From a virus (Duplodnaviria; Caudoviricetes): DNA of 64,000 nt. The stretch lies in IMG/VR virus record IMGVR_UViG_3300043468_001158; one strand, written 5' to 3'. The notes under the pieces were generated by a model that was given only the letters and a program-made list of their open reading frames with translations, was not told where the DNA came from and searched no databases. Shown one piece after another: positions 29,161 through 38,433 of this stretch (its first letter is position 1; each line of letters opens with the position of its first letter). Both the position numbers and the translations under genes were made by a program.

Positions 29161-29895
29161 ATGAGAAAGCCAAAGAAATATCATTACATATACAAAACAA
29201 CTAATATAATAAAAAATTATTTTTATATAGGGATGCATTCTACTAATAATTTAGAAGATGGATATTTAGGTAGTGGAAAAAGAATAAGATATTCCATAAA
29301 CAAATATGGAAAAGAAAATCACAAAATAGAAATATTAGAATTTCTTCCTTCTCGAGAAGAATTAATAATAAGAGAGAAAGAAATAGTAAATGAAGAATTG
29401 TTAGCCAATTCTCAATGTATTAATTTATGCATTGGGGGTGAAGGTGGAAATGGAACTAGAAATTGGACCGAAGAAACTTATAAAAAAGTAAATAAAACTT
29501 CTTGGGGGAATTTATACTTGAATGGATTTAATCCTGACAATTGGTCAAAATTATCTCCGGAAGAATATGAAGTTAGACGTCAAAAACACTCAAGTGCTGC
29601 ATCCGGAGAAAAAAATGGAATGTTTGGTACAAATGTATTCATTGACCAGAATTATAAAGGAAGTATTCCAAATAGTAACATTTTAAATTCATGGAAATTT
29701 AAAAATGGGTATCAACCTGAAGGTTGGATTTTATTGAGTGAATGGCGAAATAACAAAAAGAATAAAAAAAATCAAGCGTATGGAAAACATTGGTATAATG
29801 ACGGTACTAATAATTATTTTTTATTAGCTTCTGATGAAAAAACAAATTCATTGTTGAAGGGACGAATAGGAAAGCTTTTTAAGAATTCTGTTTGA
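29161..29895 (+). mobile_element. free-standing GIY-YIG (Seg-like) homing endonuclease
   Basis: HYIYKTTN...FYIGMHST...GYLGSG...E..N; visibly more AT-rich than the flanks and has five TTAA sites. Confidence 0.85.
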
Positions 29896-30175
29896 AGCCG
29901 ATATAACGGTATGTGAGACGCGGTGTGGTGACCGCCACCTCCACCAAAAGAATTTTATCAAAATTAGAATTCTTTTTAATGGGGGTGCTTAATCCTTTCG
30001 ATCATGTGCAAAAATATTAGGTTAGGAATCGACACGTGATAGTCGTAAAAAGACAAAAACAAGTATTTGTCAATGACGAAACTTATGCAGTTCGCGCAGT
30101 AGCGTAAGGACTGACGGGGTTTGATTTAGCCCGGCTTATCAACTAACATCCGGTATGGGGAGCTATATGTTCCCC
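29896..30175 (+). ncRNA. ssrA: circularly permuted (two-piece) tmRNA
   Basis: Acceptor piece GAC-GCGGT/ACCGC T-arm, CACCTCC-A-CCA ending at 29946; hairpin spacer; coding piece begins GGGGGTG at 29981 (7-bp stem with G3:U70); tag frame VNDETYAVRAVA* at 30069-30107; terminal hairpin 30157-30175. Confidence 0.85.
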
Positions 30176-34355: not shown

Positions 34356-34416
34356 AAAAGATAAACTTCTGGTTTTACGATTTCTGCTAAACCTTTAGTG
34401 ATATATTAGACAGACA

Positions 34417-34424
34417 TATAAATA
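34417..34424 (+). promoter_or_regulatory. T4-type late promoter
   Basis: TATAAATA upstream of 34494. Confidence 0.65.
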
Positions 34425-34493
34425 CATTAGAGCATAAGCAATTTATTCCAAACCTCTTTCCACATAACGAACATACACACGGAGAATACTAAA

Positions 34494-35117
34494 ATGGCAT
34501 TCGAACTACTAAACGAATTGCAAACATTGATGCAAGAAGACAAATCAAAAAAACAACAAGAGTTCTTATTAGTAGAACGAGTTGATAAGTTGTTAGGTCA
34601 TCTACATGCGATGTTAGCAAACAAAGAAAACCCTCTTGAAGACGTAGACGTTGAAGAACTTTCTACTCAATTGGCTGGATTACAACTTCTTGGCAAGAAA
34701 GACCATCGTGATGCAATGGATGATTTCTCTAAACTTGACCAAGCAGGTGTGTCTAAAAACTTCTACAAATTTCTTGACCAAATTGATGACCCACGTCAAA
34801 CTCCAGACTTCAACGACAAACGTTCAGCTGATGACTTGTTGAAATACATTGCTACAACTCACGCACCTTCTGTGGTCAGTGATTGGAAGAATGCTATTGA
34901 AGCGGCACAAAATGGAGATGTGAAATCATTGGCAAAAATCAAAGATGCGGTCAATAAGATGTATACTTTCTATCAAGCACAATTCAACAAGTTACATTCG
35001 CACTTCAAAGTTGGCGGTTCATTTGATGACTTAGTGCCAGGTGCCGTTCCAGGTGCTTCAACTACTGGACCAGTGCCAGGAACCGTTCCTATGGACGCAA
35101 TGAAACAAGCTGCGTAA
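34494..35117 (+). CDS. hypothetical late protein, paralog of 28113..28601
   Basis: GGAGA RBS; shared ERVD..L...QLAGL core. Confidence 0.75.
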   Translation: MAFELLNELQTLMQEDKSKKQQEFLLVERVDKLLGHLHAMLANKENPLEDVDVEELSTQLAGLQLLGKKDHRDAMDDFSKLDQAGVSKNFYKFLDQIDDPRQTPDFNDKRSADDLLKYIATTHAPSVVSDWKNAIEAAQNGDVKSLAKIKDAVNKMYTFYQAQFNKLHSHFKVGGSFDDLVPGAVPGASTTGPVPGTVPMDAMKQAA

Positions 35118-35133
35118 TAAACCTCTTCACTCC

Positions 35134-35173
35134 AATTTCAGAGACAGTTGACTTTTTATCTGTCTCTGAAATT
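35134..35173. terminator. 14-bp hairpin, probable terminator
   Basis: AATTTCAGAGACAG / CTGTCTCTGAAATT. Confidence 0.55.
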
Positions 35174-35178
35174 ATCCG

Positions 35179-35207
35179 TTTACATATGTCACATTCTGTG
35201 ATAGAAT
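35179..35207 (+). promoter_or_regulatory. sigma70-like promoter for the ncRNA-Ro60 unit
   Basis: TTTACA-N17-TAGAAT. Confidence 0.65.
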
Positions 35208-35223
35208 ATAATCTCAAACTTGA

Positions 35224-35526
35224 ACAGTACGTATAAAGATGCGGTCTTCTTTCACTACCGATTAGTGATGATTATCTTAACTGACGTAGTTTCAGTTCTT
35301 GATTGAACTGACGTTTGCTGGTGGATGAGGCTAATCAGATCGTTGTTAGACCGAATGCTAACTATGAGACAGGATGAATTCTCCTGTGTAGGACGTATAG
35401 CTCTGAATAGTTATACTAGATTGTTGAAAAGAATACTCTCAAACGGGTTTCATTAGTATTTCTTCAATTGAAATCTTCGTTACTAGAATTTTGTAGTAAA
35501 AGAAGACCTATCTTTATACGTACTGT
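35224..35526 (+). ncRNA. Y-RNA-like structured RNA upstream of Ro60
   Basis: 35224-35258 pairs with 35493-35526 (33 pairs, one C bulge at 35242, one C/A mismatch); internal hairpins 35292-35311 and 35369-35387; no long ORF. Confidence 0.7.
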
Positions 35527-35571
35527 GTCAAAACTTTTTGCTTTCTATTCTAAACAGGAGCCGTGATTCAT

Positions 35572-37203
35572 ATGTCAAATGCAACTAACCTCTACAAATC
35601 AGTAGTTCCAACTAAAGATTCTACTACTCCTCAAACTAAAGTAATTCCAGGTCGTGAAACCGAAATGGTTTCCAATCATGCTGGTGGTGTAGTCTTTGCA
35701 GTATCAGATATGATGTATCTTGACAGGTTCTTGATACTTGGTTCTGAACAACCAAGCTTCTATGCATCAGCTCAAAAGCTAACACAAGAAGCTGCGTCTA
35801 ATGTTATCAAGTTGATTGCTAAAGACCCAGTGTCAGTGGTCAATCGTGTGGTTGAAATCTCTAATGCTGGACGTGCTCCTAAAAACGACAGTGCTATCTT
35901 TGTATTGGCTCTTGTTGCAGTATCACCTAATAACGAAGCTCGTCAATTAGCTTTTGATGCACTTCCAAAAGTATGCAGAACTGGTACTCATTTGTTCCAA
36001 TTCGTTGACCTTATCAATTCAATGGGTAAATGGAATGCAGTGACTAAACGTGGTATTGCAAACTGGTATAACAGCAAAGATGTATCTCGTCTTGCATTTC
36101 AACTGTTGAAGTATCAACAACGTAATGGCTGGTCTCATCGTGATGTATTGCGATTGGCTCATGTAAAACCTGATAGCAACACTCGCTCTTCATTGTATCG
36201 TTGGGTAGCTGCAAAAGATAGCGAAGCAAAACGAATCGCTGCATATGAAGCTCCAAGAATTGTTGAGTTTCATTCAGCATTACATAAAGAGCCATCTAAA
36301 TCGTTGGCACTTGAATGTATCGAAGAGTTCGATATGACTTGGGAAATGTTGCCAACTGAACTTTTGAAAGATGTTGATATCTGGGCTGCTTTGATTCGTA
36401 ACATGGGTTATACTGCATTGCTTCGCAACTTGGGTCGCTTCTCTTCATTGGGAATGACTAAAGGTTTGTCTTCTACTTTGAAGGACATAGTAGCTGGTCT
36501 TAGCAATGTTGAAGCTTTGAAACGTGGAAGAGTTCATCCTATCACAATTTTGAATGCATTGAAAACTTATAGCCAAGGTCATGGTGACAAAGGCTCAATG
36601 AGCTGGGATGTTTCAACTCATGTGAAAGGTATATTGAACGATGTTTTCTATGAAGCATTCAACTTCATAGAACCAACTGGTAAAAACTTCTTCATTGGGG
36701 TTGATTGTTCTGGTTCAATGTTTGGAGCTAATGTTGTAGGATTACCAAACTTGACTGCTGCAGAAGTAGCAGGTGTGATGGCATTAGCAATCGCAAAACG
36801 TGAACCAAACTATTGGATTGGTGGCTTCAATACTAAGATGTCTGAACTGAAGATACATCCACAAATGCAATTGCCTGAAGTGCTGAAGGTCATCAGAAGC
36901 TTTTCATGGGGTGGTACAGATTGTGCATTGCCAATGATTCATGCAACTCAACATAAGATGGATGTCGATTGCTTTGTAACTATTACAGATAATGAAACTT
37001 GGGCTGGTCGTGTTCATCCAACTGAAGCACTTCGTGATTATCGTAAAGTGATGAACAAACCAAATGCTTGTAATATGGTACTTGGTACTTCAACTACTCG
37101 CTTTACTGTAGCTGACCCTAAAGACCCACGTCAATTGGACATCGTTGGATTCGATTCATCAGTACCTCAACTTGTATCGGAGTTTGCACAAGGCAACATA
37201 TGA
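35572..37203 (+). CDS. Ro60 / Rsr (TROVE plus vWA) RNA-binding protein
   Basis: NHAGG..F, LDRFLILGS, RTGTHLFQF, KYQQRNGWSHRDVLRLAH, ALLRNLGR, MIDAS DCSGSM, TDNETW; ATG 35572 after AGGAG. Confidence 0.95.
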   Translation: MSNATNLYKSVVPTKDSTTPQTKVIPGRETEMVSNHAGGVVFAVSDMMYLDRFLILGSEQPSFYASAQKLTQEAASNVIKLIAKDPVSVVNRVVEISNAGRAPKNDSAIFVLALVAVSPNNEARQLAFDALPKVCRTGTHLFQFVDLINSMGKWNAVTKRGIANWYNSKDVSRLAFQLLKYQQRNGWSHRDVLRLAHVKPDSNTRSSLYRWVAAKDSEAKRIAAYEAPRIVEFHSALHKEPSKSLALECIEEFDMTWEMLPTELLKDVDIWAALIRNMGYTALLRNLGRFSSLGMTKGLSSTLKDIVAGLSNVEALKRGRVHPITILNALKTYSQGHGDKGSMSWDVSTHVKGILNDVFYEAFNFIEPTGKNFFIGVDCSGSMFGANVVGLPNLTAAEVAGVMALAIAKREPNYWIGGFNTKMSELKIHPQMQLPEVLKVIRSFSWGGTDCALPMIHATQHKMDVDCFVTITDNETWAGRVHPTEALRDYRKVMNKPNACNMVLGTSTTRFTVADPKDPRQLDIVGFDSSVPQLVSEFAQGNI

Positions 37204-37868
37204 AAATCGTAAGTCCGTTCAAAGACTACTATGATTATCTTGTAGGAGTATACGGCATAGATGAGTCTATTGTCTATGTTCGTAATACTCTTGCAAAAGG
37301 TTATGTTACGACTGAGAAAAAAGTATTTGACTTTCACCCATTTGCTATACCACCTGGTTATAAGACTAAGTATGTAGTAGTGAATGGGCGAAAGTATTTG
37401 TTTGTATGTCCTTCAAATTCTTATCTTGTAAAACCAAGATGGGAATTGTATGATTTCGATAAACATCATGGTCATGAGTTCATATCTCAACGATACTTTA
37501 GAAGGAAAGACCTTGAAGAACAACAAAAAGATTACATTGGTGGAACATCTCAAGCTCTAATTGACCTTTCAAAAGAAGTTGGAACTCCAGTGTTCAGTGT
37601 CACTGGATTTTCATGGATTGAGCGAAGCAAAAAGACTAATCGAAAATATGAATATGCGTTGGATAATGAAGTACCAATGCTGTCTGAACATGGCTTTCCG
37701 AATATCATCCCAGCAAATCAATTGTACCAAGAACTTGAACATTATTTGTGTAATGTATTACGGGATTCTCCTGATACAAAACCGCCAGTAACTATCAGCG
37801 ATAAAGATATGATTGAAAGCAAGGGCTTTGATAAAAAGATAAGCTTCCGTCATAGGAAGAATAAATAG
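37200..37868 (+). CDS. hypothetical protein coupled to Ro60
   Basis: ATGA overlap with the Ro60 stop; MKIVSPFKDYYDY N-terminus, DMIESKGFDKKISFRHRK C-terminus. Confidence 0.7.
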   Translation: MKIVSPFKDYYDYLVGVYGIDESIVYVRNTLAKGYVTTEKKVFDFHPFAIPPGYKTKYVVVNGRKYLFVCPSNSYLVKPRWELYDFDKHHGHEFISQRYFRRKDLEEQQKDYIGGTSQALIDLSKEVGTPVFSVTGFSWIERSKKTNRKYEYALDNEVPMLSEHGFPNIIPANQLYQELEHYLCNVLRDSPDTKPPVTISDKDMIESKGFDKKISFRHRKNK

Positions 37869-37896
37869 AATATTGAAACTCCCTTTATAGGAATAA

Positions 37897-38433
37897 ATGA
37901 AACTCAATGTCATAGTAGCACACGATACTAATCGTGTGATAGGTAATAGTAAATCAAACTCTTTGCCTTGGTACCTTCCTCCAGACCTAAAACATTTCAA
38001 GAAACTAACATTAGGTCATCCAGTGATTATGGGTAAGAATACTTATCTATCATTACCAAATCAAAAACCATTACCAGATAGAACGAATATTGTTATTTGC
38101 AGTAATCCTGACGAATTTGAATTCCCATATAATGAATATGAAAATCAAAAGGATTCACCAGTACTAGGTTTCTCTGATTTAACCCGAGCTATTATCTTCT
38201 GCGAAACCTGGTTACAAGCTAAAGAAGCTTTTGTGATTGGTGGAGCAAGAATGTATAATGAAGTATTGAAGAAGCATCAAGTAGATGTTGTATATCGAAC
38301 CTTGATTGATGGAACTTTTGAAGGGGATGTAAAGTTTCCAGAATTGAAAGGGGAGCAATGGGTGTTGAAACCCGGAGACCCCCTTGAATATGAAGGGCTG
38401 ACTTATTACTTTGACGAGCTTGTTAGGGAATAA
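37897..38433 (+). CDS. folA: dihydrofolate reductase
   Basis: IVAHD.NRVIG, LPWYLPPDLKHFKKLT, VIMGKNTY.SLP.KPLPDRTNIV, VIGGARMY, GDVKFP. Confidence 0.95.
   Translation: MKLNVIVAHDTNRVIGNSKSNSLPWYLPPDLKHFKKLTLGHPVIMGKNTYLSLPNQKPLPDRTNIVICSNPDEFEFPYNEYENQKDSPVLGFSDLTRAIIFCETWLQAKEAFVIGGARMYNEVLKKHQVDVVYRTLIDGTFEGDVKFPELKGEQWVLKPGDPLEYEGLTYYFDELVRE

What the first reader, a model, noticed from the sequence alone, without database searches (positions are those of the whole stretch)
35179..37868. Ro60 operon led by a ~300-nt RNA closed by a long bulged stem: possible new Y-RNA class
A clear promoter (35179-35207) is followed by a region whose ends pair: ACAGTACGTATAAAGATG(C)GGTCTTCTTT-C-ACTAC with GTAGT-A-AAAGAAGACC-TATCTTTATACGTACTGT, giving 33 pairs with a single bulged C next to a GGUC/GACC helix. 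Ro60 starts 46 nt later, and a coupled unknown gene follows. Established: Ro60 binds Y RNAs through a bulged-C helix formed by the 5' and 3' ends, and bacterial Y RNA genes lie next to Ro. Differences here: the RNA is about two to three times the usual length, the bulge lies 5' of GGUC rather than 3', and I see several internal hairpins but no tRNA-like T-arm as in YrlA. It could tether a different partner, such as the 222-aa protein, a nuclease or a defence protein.
Basis: partly seen in the sequence, partly recalled or inferred. Interest (0 to 1): 0.85.

Follow-up and report, generated by a model that had tools for sequence, protein, structure and literature searches.

The report
Large processed phage Y RNA
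A lake-water giant phage makes an abundant 274-base structured RNA just upstream of its Ro60 gene; it is an unusually large member of the Y RNA kind (partner RNAs of the Ro60 ring protein), belongs to an undescribed family found in about 25 related phage contigs, and may be joined into a circle.

Summary
In detail: window 35224-35526 closes into a 33-pair stem (fold z -7.6), between a sigma-70-type promoter and a true Ro60 gene. It is not a one-off. Relatives of this Ro60 in about 25 phage contigs, several of 330-360 kb, carry the same kind of RNA upstream: a short RNA of 55-157 nt, a long one of 220-372 nt, or both. All share one handle: a helix ending in C:G, a bulged C, G, a second helix, then UUAUC, with UUU-G on the 3' strand. 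Both helices covary. A mycobacteriophage locus with known YrlA has the same 5' handle.

The 205-nt body is not a YrlA tRNA mimic: Rfam gives no match, while a control phage does. A covariance model of the family's body core, built without this window, finds only 35333-35394 (E 3.6e-5).

Lake metatranscriptomes hold a separate contig covering 35239-35512 at 24-42 times the depth of its flanks. In two runs of one sample it closes on itself (35512 joined to 35239). So this is a discrete, processed RNA that may be circular; a reverse-transcription artefact is not excluded.

Verdict: a new, large variant of Y RNA. Ro60 binding is inferred. The scan has noted other phage Ro60-like/RNA pairs on other DNA, with a different handle.

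The parts
35179..35207 (+). Sigma-70-type promoter (TTTACA, 17 nt, TAGAAT, extended -10 TG) for the RNA-Ro60 unit
   Evidence: Promoter scan, 10 of 12 matches. A similar GTTTACA-N17-TAtAAT precedes the RNAs in L001, L006, L013, L016, L051 and L053.
35220..35238 (+). 5' leader and outer 5' strand of the precursor stem; removed from the mature RNA
   Evidence: It pairs with 35513-35531 in the fold. The upstream RNA contig stops at 35230 and the abundant contig starts at 35239.
35239..35512 (+). Mature 274-nt Y-type RNA, seen as a head-to-tail (circular) contig in two RNA runs
   Evidence: A separate contig with depth 416 (X16) and 748 (X17), against 15-31 in the flanks, and a joint 35512->35239. 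In X18 a contig also starts at 35239, depth 60 against 13. RNA runs of two studies hold it.
35242..35242 (+).
   Evidence: Sequence. No counterpart in L051 or L053.
35254..35258 (+). P1, 5' strand (ACUAC); pairs with 35493-35497
   Evidence: Family alignment anchored on the handle. Positions 1-5 are paired in 91-100% of 35 RNAs with up to 5 pair types.
35259..35260 (+). Family-invariant bulged C and following G: the inferred Ro60 contact
   Evidence: C-C-G is present in 35 of 35 family RNAs and in the three Y RNAs of mycobacteriophage ET08.
35263..35271 (+). P2, 5' strand (UAGUGAUGA); pairs with 35477-35485
   Evidence: Nine pairs here. Family positions 1-5 are 97-100% paired, with 46 G.U pairs against 7 A.C.
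35272..35276 (+). Conserved UUAUC directly after P2
   Evidence: UUA(U/C)C is at this place in almost all family RNAs (UUAAC in L026) and in ET08.
35345..35362 (+). Hairpin GUUAG/CUAAC with the 8-nt loop ACCGAAUG (T-arm position, CGAA-type loop)
   Evidence: Model R1, built without the window, aligns it. The stem covaries across loci.
35369..35392 (+). Hairpin ACAGGA/UCCUGU followed by the conserved GUGUAGG
   Evidence: R1 hit at 35333-35394, 30.4 bits, E 3.6e-5, the only significant hit in 64 kb. The stem is fully different yet still paired in L051 and L053.
35395..35416 (+). Hairpin with a CUGAA loop, followed by UAG
   Evidence: Fold. L051 and L053 have a different stem with the same loop motif.
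35469..35476 (+). Conserved UGAAAUCU just before the 3' strand of P2
   Evidence: (C/U)(U/C)GAAAUnU is at this place in most long family RNAs.
35477..35485 (+). P2, 3' strand (UCGUUACUA)
35490..35497 (+). UUU then G-started 3' strand of P1 (GUAGU)
   Evidence: UUU(U/C)-G is found throughout the family.
35513..35530 (+). Outer 3' strand of the precursor stem; lies between the RNA's 3' end and the mRNA's 5' end and is not in any RNA contig
35531..35534 (+). 5' end of the processed Ro60 mRNA
   Evidence: The downstream RNA contigs begin at 35531 (X16) and 35534 (X17), directly after Illumina adapter sequence (table 7).
35540..35563 (+). UUGCU...GGAGCCG element overlapping the Ro60 ribosome-binding site (AGGAG 35556-35560)
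   Evidence: Most family loci have a UUGCUGC-loop-GCAGCCG hairpin 25-45 nt before Ro60. L049, L051 and L053 have the variant seen in this window.
35572..37203 (+). Ro60 gene (543 aa from the ATG)
   Evidence: Pfam TROVE and vWA_Ro60. PDB matches: D. radiodurans Rsr E 2e-111, Ro60 entries 9nen and 1yvp E 1e-100 and 3e-99.
37200..37868 (+). 222-aa protein, translationally coupled to Ro60; phrog_4243, weak ATP-grasp-like fold. An accessory gene of this subclade, not a family-wide partner

Best explanation
Window 35239-35512 (+) is the mature form of a Y-type non-coding RNA, the partner RNA of the phage Ro60 encoded 60 nt downstream. Shown or directly read: it is transcribed with Ro60 from the promoter at 35179-35207, no terminator lies between them, and the RNA accumulates separately at about 24-42 times the contig depth of its flanks. 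Its ends lie opposite each other inside the long terminal duplex (A35239 pairs with U35511, leaving a 1-nt 3' overhang at C35512). Inferred from family conservation: Ro60 binds the invariant handle, which is helix P1 ending in C35258:G35493, bulged C35259, G35260, helix P2 (35263-71 with 35477-85) and UUAUC. Inferred by analogy with the Rsr/Y RNA/PNPase complex and the Thermus phage phiLo Ro60-Yrl-PNPase complex: the 205-nt body is a scaffold that brings another factor, most likely a host exoribonuclease, to the ring or gates access to it. The body holds a CGAA-loop hairpin, a hairpin followed by GUGUAGG, and further hairpins. The extra-long outer duplex serves as the processing stem that releases the RNA from the Ro60 leader. 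The enzyme is unknown: either a double-strand-specific cut, or an endonuclease cut followed by 3' trimming up to the duplex.
For: The neighbouring gene is Ro60. The terminal stem is real. About 25 related Ro60 loci have a 300-570 nt ORF-free gap upstream holding RNAs with the same handle. Covariation over 35 RNAs: P1 positions 1-5 are 91-100% paired and P2 positions 1-5 are 97-100% paired. The paired fraction is 0.82 and 0.84, against 0.52 and 0.65 when partners are shuffled, and no shuffle of 1000 reaches the observed value. P2 has 46 G.U pairs against 7 A.C, which fixes the + strand. A descriptor of the handle hits the window once, at 35258, against 0.05 expected. Model R1 of the body core, built from 15 other loci, finds only 35333-35394 (30.4 bits, E 3.6e-5). 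The 5' handle CCG-N10-GGUUAYC recurs three times in the mycobacteriophage ET08 locus, where Rfam YrlA hits the middle RNA. Expression and processing: with breadth. Nearest homologues L051 and L053 keep the architecture with 41-43 bp stems of largely different sequence. Analogy: Chen et al. 2014 (PMC4201824) and phiLo Ro60 (PMC12135203).
Against: There is no binding data. The RNA is 2-3 times the 80-130 nt of characterised Y RNAs. No Rfam Y_RNA or YrlA match was found. The expression data are assembled contigs, not reads, so strand, exact 3' end and relative levels are approximate, and all full-length RNA holders come from two studies. The 1-nt overhang is not the 2-nt overhang of RNase III. 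The partner of the body is unknown.
Confidence: 0.8

Rival explanations
1. The structure is only a cis-acting leader of the Ro60 mRNA: a processing or stabilising stem, or an operator on which Ro60 regulates its own translation. The excised piece has no function of its own.
For: It is co-transcribed with Ro60 and no terminator follows it. The mRNA gains a defined 5' end at 35531/35534. A conserved hairpin overlapping the ribosome-binding site follows it.
Against: The excised RNA accumulates 24-42 fold over the mRNA. In L012 and L015 the RNA lies 270-370 nt from Ro60 with an ORF between. The 205-nt body has conserved, covarying elements that processing does not need. Most loci carry two such RNAs in tandem.
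Confidence: 0.1
2. It is a diverged YrlA, that is, a tRNA-mimicking Y RNA whose T, acceptor-like and D arms have drifted beyond recognition.
For: The order of elements matches YrlA: handle, UUAUC (the YUAY of YrlA), a hairpin with a UCGAA/CCGAA loop, a second hairpin, then an invariant UAG, as in U8-A9-G10 of tRNA.
Against: Rfam YrlA finds nothing in the window at E <= 10 or in 9 related loci at E <= 5, yet scores 37 bits on the ET08 control. ARAGORN finds no tRNA-like gene. The loop has 8 nt on a 4-bp stem and often starts with C where T54 would be. Five to seven nucleotides separate the two hairpins, where T and acceptor stems should stack. No D arm is present.
Confidence: 0.06
3. The inverted repeat acts as DNA (a cruciform, recombination site or protein-binding palindrome) rather than as RNA.
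For: It is a long, near-perfect inverted repeat.
Against: G.U pairs are tolerated while A.C is avoided in P2 (46 against 7), which is specific to one RNA strand. The arms change sequence between relatives but stay paired. A discrete abundant RNA exists.
Confidence: 0.02

Closest known systems
Bacterial and phage Y RNAs YrlA/YrlB (Chen et al. 2014, PMC4201824; Rfam RF02553), e.g. the three tandem RNAs upstream of Ro60 in mycobacteriophage ET08
   Same: Encoded just upstream of Ro60 on the same strand and processed from a common precursor. Often two or more in tandem. Closed by a stem formed from the 5' and 3' ends. Same 5' handle, CCG-N10-GGUUAYC.
   Different: No T arm, D arm or acceptor-like stem that the YrlA model can detect. 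The body is 160-300 nt of other conserved hairpins. The 3' strand of the handle is conserved (UUU-G), whereas Chen et al. say only the 5' strand is recognisable in the Salmonella and M. smegmatis RNAs. Total length is 220-372 nt against about 100-150.
Metazoan Y RNAs and D. radiodurans Yrn1/Yrn2
   Same: A bulged-C helix in which both strands are kept: the helix ends in C:G, then a bulged C, then G(A) opposite U-rich residues. Compare GGUCCGA as quoted in PMC4201824. A second helix follows, then the loop. The protein's best solved match is D. radiodurans Rsr.
   Different: The size. Rfam Y_RNA gives no match. The loop region is a large multi-hairpin domain. My comparison with individual human Y RNA sequences is from memory, not tested.
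Thermus phage phiLo Ro60 with Yrl1/Yrl2 (PMC12135203)
   Same: A phage Ro60 with Y-like RNAs encoded upstream. That study reports binding and a complex with host PNPase, the model used here for function.
   Different: phiLo Ro60 is only distantly similar (E 7e-07). Its RNAs were picked by a CGAA motif and are described as having canonical Y RNA-like features.
Processing stems cut by RNase III (rRNA precursors, T7 early mRNAs)
   Same: A duplex of 33-43 bp flanking a stable RNA, with cuts on both strands opposite each other.
   Different: The overhang seen is 1 nt, not 2. The enzyme is unknown.

Membership tests
Y RNA (Ro60-associated ncRNA, broad sense) | Encoded within a few kb of Ro60 on the same strand (the criterion of Chen et al. 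2014) | tested here: met
   The RNA ends 60 nt before the Ro60 ATG on the same strand.
Y RNA (Ro60-associated ncRNA, broad sense) | 5' and 3' ends pair into a stem that holds the Ro60 site (bulged helix; 5' strand like GGUCCGA or GNCGAA) | tested here: met
   P1, bulged C35259, G and P2 are invariant or covarying in 35 RNAs. The motif reads ACCGAU here and (A/G)CCG(A/C/G/U) in the family.
Y RNA (Ro60-associated ncRNA, broad sense) | A discrete, stable small RNA | tested here: met
   A separate contig at 24-42 times the flank depth in metatranscriptomes of two studies. This is contig-level evidence only.
Y RNA (Ro60-associated ncRNA, broad sense) | Physically bound by Ro60 | not testable with these tools
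   Needs RIP, CLIP or EMSA.
Y RNA (Ro60-associated ncRNA, broad sense) | Length 80-130 nt | tested here: not met
   274 nt for the mature RNA; family long RNAs are 220-372 nt.
YrlA (Rfam RF02553) | tRNA-like domain with near-invariant T and D arms around an acceptor-like stem | tested here: not met
   No YrlA match at E <= 10 in 35100-35650 or at E <= 5 in 9 related loci. The control ET08 scores 37.4 bits. ARAGORN finds nothing.
YrlA (Rfam RF02553) | 5' motif followed by YUAY | tested here: met
   CCGAUUAGUGAUGA-UUAUC at 35258-35276, compared with the ET08 RNAs.
Metazoan Y_RNA (Rfam RF00019) | Match to the covariance model | tested here: not met
   No match at E <= 10. The short family RNAs in L003 and L004 also give none at E <= 5.
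RNase III-processed stable RNA | A duplex of 20 bp or more cut on both strands with a 2-nt 3' overhang | tested here: inconclusive
   The duplex has 33 pairs. The ends at 35239 and 35512 give a 1-nt overhang. Trimming after the cut cannot be excluded.
Covalently circular RNA | Head-to-tail junction in cDNA, with nothing added at the joint | tested here: met
   Contigs of 304 letters = 274 + 30 (k-1), with the joint 35512->35239, no shared letters and none inserted, in X16 and X17, which come from the same sample.
Covalently circular RNA | Junction frequent in raw reads; resistance to RNase R; no free ends | not testable with these tools
   Only contigs are held. In X18 the contig starts at 35239 without a joint, so linear molecules probably exist.

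The most novel reading that the evidence does not exclude
The mature Y RNA is covalently circularised in vivo. After excision from the long processing duplex, its two ends, held side by side, are sealed by an RNA ligase. Relatives of this phage all encode T4 Rnl1-type and Rnl2-type ligases and no RtcB. This would give an exonuclease-proof Y RNA, useful for an RNA whose known role is to dock Ro60 onto a 3'-5' exoribonuclease. I found no paper describing a circular Y RNA.
Probability: 0.3. Interest if true: 0.85.

Novelty: new variant of a known kind. Interest (0 to 1): 0.66.

Why it matters
Characterised Y RNAs are about 80-150 nt, and the bacterial and phage ones best understood mimic tRNA. 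Here a bona fide Ro60, closest to the Deinococcus and animal proteins, is paired with a conserved 220-372 nt RNA. That RNA keeps the animal-like two-stranded bulged-C handle but carries a different, modular body, in giant freshwater phages. This widens the definition of Y RNA and gives a family with enough covariation to model. It also shows that current Rfam models miss this branch. Finally, it offers a natural case, with expression evidence from lakes, for asking what a virus uses Ro60 for. If the head-to-tail junction reflects real circles, it would link RNA ligases to Y RNA biogenesis directly.

Tried and rejected
1. DNA search of 35100-37900 against the phage collection found no match. 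BLASTN of the RNA against related loci found nothing significant. The family is visible only through motifs and structure.

2. Rfam at gathering threshold gave no Y-type hit on the window or on 16 loci.

3. No whole genome is held for this window, so RNA ligase genes could be sought only in relatives and by tblastn in the 64-kb window, which gave no hit. This says nothing about the rest of the phage.

4. The idea that the 222-aa protein is the tethered partner or an RNA ligase. It is missing from most family loci, and one homologue sits beside DHFR without Ro60. Its fold matches are all ATP-grasp enzymes, but weak (Foldseek E 0.016; VIA-align Z 5.3), and that fold ligates carboxylates to amines, not RNA ends.

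5. Model R1 did not pick up L051, L053, L049 or L056 at E <= 1, although L051 and L053 are clearly homologous by eye and by alignment. The model is narrow.

6. An exact look-up of the 43-aa ORF inside the RNA, meant to find more 304-letter contigs, returned nothing on record.

7. A pseudoknot between GUGUAGG and an upstream CCUAC, seen in some loci, has no counterpart in the window. Dropped.

8. The review PMC10870794 is not held.

Full report
**What is in the sequence.** A promoter-like site lies at 35179-35207: TTTACA, 17 nt, TAGAAT, with a TG before the second hexamer. It is followed by about 350 nt without any ORF of 60 aa or more. The ends of that stretch pair: 35224-35258 with 35493-35526, giving 33 pairs, one bulged C (35242) and one C/A mismatch. 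The fold of 35220-35535 has -104.9 kcal/mol against -68.8 +/- 4.8 for shuffles (z -7.6). The ORF starting at ATG 35572 is a genuine Ro60. It matches Pfam TROVE and vWA_Ro60. Its best solved relatives are D. radiodurans Rsr (E 2e-111) and the Ro60 entries 9nen and 1yvp (E 1e-100 and 3e-99). Neither Rfam nor ARAGORN recognises anything in the RNA region.

**It is one member of a family.** DNA searches found nothing similar. Searching public contigs for relatives of the Ro60 protein gave 21 viral loci and 18 metagenome loci at 48-64% identity; some are the same contig held in both collections. Several lie on phage contigs of 330-360 kb with terminal repeats. Nearly all have a 300-570 nt ORF-free gap upstream of Ro60.

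Reading those gaps showed recurring motifs, which I located by pattern and helix search:
- 5' side: a helix whose last pair is C:G, one unpaired C, then G, two to four nucleotides, a second helix, and UUAUC.
- 3' side: (C/U)UGAAAUnU, the partner strand of the second helix, five to eight nucleotides ending in UUU(U/C), then G starting the partner strand of the first helix.

Most loci carry two such RNAs in tandem: a short one (55-157 nt) and a long one (220-372 nt). The window has only the long type.

Over 35 distinct RNAs, the first five pairs of each helix are formed in 91-100% of cases, with up to five or six pair types. Dealing the 3' partners out among the sequences lowers the paired fraction from 0.82 to 0.52 for P1 and from 0.84 to 0.65 for P2, and no shuffle of 1000 reaches the observed value. 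P2 holds 46 G.U pairs against 7 A.C, so selection acts on the + strand RNA. A descriptor of the handle matches the 64-kb window once on either strand, at 35258, against 0.05 matches expected in simulated sequence.

**Which bulge matters.** In the window the family handle reads ACUAC (35254-58), C35259, GAU, UAGUGAUGA (35263-71), UUAUC (35272-76). On the 3' side it reads UGAAAUCU (35469-76), UCGUUACUA (35477-85), GAAUUUU, GUAGU (35493-97). The invariant bulged C is therefore 35259, with G.U and A-U pairs above it. This is the arrangement of the animal GGUC-C-GA helix as summarised in Chen et al. 2014.

It has no counterpart in the closest homologues L051 and L053 and turns out to be 3 pairs from the processed end. 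The same 5' handle (CCG, about ten nucleotides, GGUUAYC) occurs three times in the mycobacteriophage ET08 Ro60 locus, one of the phages used by Chen et al. There Rfam YrlA hits the tRNA-like core of the middle RNA at 37.4 bits. So the handle ties this family to established Y RNAs.

**The body is not a tRNA mimic, but it is conserved.** Rfam YrlA and Y_RNA give nothing at E <= 10 in the window or at E <= 5 in nine related loci. Most long RNAs nevertheless share a core:
- CGUUG;
- a 4-bp stem with an 8-nt loop containing CGAA, or CGUA in a few loci;
- AU-purine-purine-GUUAC;
- a second hairpin;
- GUGUAGG.

RNAalifold finds compensatory changes in 9 of 11 pairs. A covariance model built from 15 loci without the window has one significant hit in the window, 35333-35394, at 30.4 bits and E 3.6e-5. 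The order of elements recalls YrlA's T arm, acceptor-like stem and U8-A9-G10: handle, UUAUC, CGAA-loop hairpin, hairpin, UAG. However, loop size, stem length, spacing and the absence of a D arm all fail the test. Some relatives repeat the module: two tandem hits in L009 and three CGAA hairpins in L021. That suggests a multivalent platform. I note, as speculation only, that the loop (GACCGAAUG in the window) resembles the Ro60 5'-strand motif itself.

**Nearer relatives.** Homologues of the downstream 222-aa protein led to loci with the window's own gene order: protease, 205-aa ORF, RNA, Ro60, this protein, DHFR. L051 and L053 carry clear homologues of the window's RNA. They have the same promoter type, the same handle with compensatory changes in P2, and the same GUUAG...CUAAC hairpin. 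Their second hairpin has an entirely different but still paired stem, and their terminal duplexes have 41-43 pairs. A long processing-type duplex is thus a conserved trait of this subclade, while its sequence is free to change. L049 instead has a tRNA-Met followed by a minimal 65-nt RNA with the handle.

**Expression and processing.** The stretch occurs in many lake metagenomes and in lake metatranscriptomes. Laying the contigs of four RNA runs on 34400-38000 showed that the region is not assembled as one piece.
- An upstream contig stops at 35230.
- A separate contig covers exactly 35239-35512, at depth 416 (X16) and 748 (X17), against 15-31 for the flanks.
- A downstream contig begins at 35531 (X16) or 35534 (X17), immediately after Illumina adapter sequence, which marks a frequent fragment end.
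- In a run from another study (X18) a contig also starts at 35239, at depth 60 against 13.

Contaminating DNA would not break at these places. The ends sit opposite each other in the duplex: A35239 pairs with U35511, and C35512 overhangs by one nucleotide. So the RNA is cut out of the Ro60 leader and is much more stable than the mRNA. The 18 nt between 35513 and 35530 are absent from the RNA contigs. RNA runs of four samples of one study hold all sampled words of the 274-nt RNA, and a run of a second study holds 76% of them.

**The circle.** In X16 and X17 the abundant contig is 304 letters long: the 274-nt unit plus a 30-letter overlap, with 35512 joined to 35239, no shared letters at the joint and none inserted. 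With 31-letter words this is what an assembler writes for a closed cycle, so junction-spanning cDNA exists.

Two readings remain. One is ligation of the two juxtaposed ends in the cell. The other is reverse-transcriptase template switching from the 5' end to a 3' end of this very abundant RNA. A linear RNA with no branch at its ends would be closed into a cycle by even a few such chimeras. X16 and X17 are one sample, and in X18 the contig starts at 35239 without a joint. I therefore put real circularisation at about 0.3.

In its favour are the clean junction and the gene content of the relatives. The three essentially complete related genomes and a fourth partial one all encode Rnl2-type and T4 Rnl1-type RNA ligases and no RtcB. 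None lies in this 64-kb window, and the rest of this phage is not available. I found no paper on circular Y RNAs.

**The 222-aa protein.** It belongs to phrog_4243, of unknown function. It is absent from most family loci, where DHFR follows Ro60 directly, and one homologue sits beside DHFR without Ro60. A confident model (pLDDT 82) gives only weak matches, but all of them are ATP-grasp enzymes (E 0.016; Z 5.3). It is a subclade accessory gene, not the conserved partner of the RNA.

**Mechanism and standing.** Shown or read directly: the structure, the family, the covariation, the handle shared with known phage Y RNAs, and a discrete abundant processed RNA. Inferred:
- Ro60 binds the handle at C35259-G35260.
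- The body recruits or gates another factor, with a host 3'-5' exoribonuclease as the best precedent (Rsr/Y RNA/PNPase in PMC4201824; phiLo Ro60-Yrl-PNPase in PMC12135203).
- The outer duplex is a processing stem.

Compared with what is known, this is a Y RNA by position, handle and behaviour. It is not a YrlA, and it lies outside the size range and models of known Y RNAs. I rate it a new variant of a known kind. Earlier notes of this scan describe other phage Ro60-like proteins with partner RNAs on other DNA. Those have a different handle (ACAGCAAA) and more distant proteins, so they are context, not support.

Noticed in passing
window 29885-30107 (+): Rfam tmRNA_permuted (RF04321) match at 64 bits, E 4.9e-10: a two-piece, circularly permuted tmRNA gene in a phage. 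ARAGORN did not call it.
   Followed up: no
window 35540-35563; L001 2959-2976, L008 2918-2936 and most other loci: A conserved hairpin UUGCUGC-loop-GCAGCCG lies 25-45 nt before the Ro60 start in most family loci. In the window, L049, L051 and L053 it reads UUGCUU...GGAGCCG, so its 3' strand contains the ribosome-binding site. It could be a translational operator or a stabiliser of the mRNA 5' end.
   Followed up: partly
window 37200-37868: The 222-aa protein (phrog_4243) models confidently, and its best fold matches are all ATP-grasp ligases, but weak (Z 5.3). The invariant residues cluster at the N terminus (K8, D9, Y11, D12, G19, D21, R28) and the C terminus (G209-F210-D211, S215-F216-R217).
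   Followed up: partly
L049 2143-2216 and about 2233-2296: In a related phage the Ro60 upstream region holds a tRNA-Met(CAU), whose acceptor stem is extended by an 11-bp flanking helix, followed by a minimal 65-nt RNA with the same handle.
   Followed up: partly
L009 2009-2151; L021 about 2700-2800: The body module (CGAA-loop hairpin plus hairpin-GUGUAGG) is duplicated in tandem in L009. L021 has three consecutive hairpins with CGAA-type loops.
   Followed up: no
G001-G004 (contigs of L003, L005, L012, L002): All four related giant-phage records encode one T4 Rnl1-type and one to three Rnl2-type RNA ligases, and no RtcB.
   Followed up: partly
window 35279-35287 and 35306-35314: A direct repeat AACUGACGU flanks UCAGUU(C), which can pair with either copy. 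This gives two mutually exclusive hairpins in the 5' part of the RNA body. It is not conserved in L051 or L053.
   Followed up: no
window 35134-35173: A 14-bp hairpin lies directly after the stop codon of the 207-aa ORF, just upstream of the RNA promoter. The U tract after it is poor, and the RNA contig runs through it.
   Followed up: no
L014 1239-1823 and equivalents: In many family loci two ORFs of about 190 aa precede the RNAs. One of them is an HNH endonuclease (phrog_16726, E 6e-26). The window has an unrelated 207-aa ORF instead.
   Followed up: no
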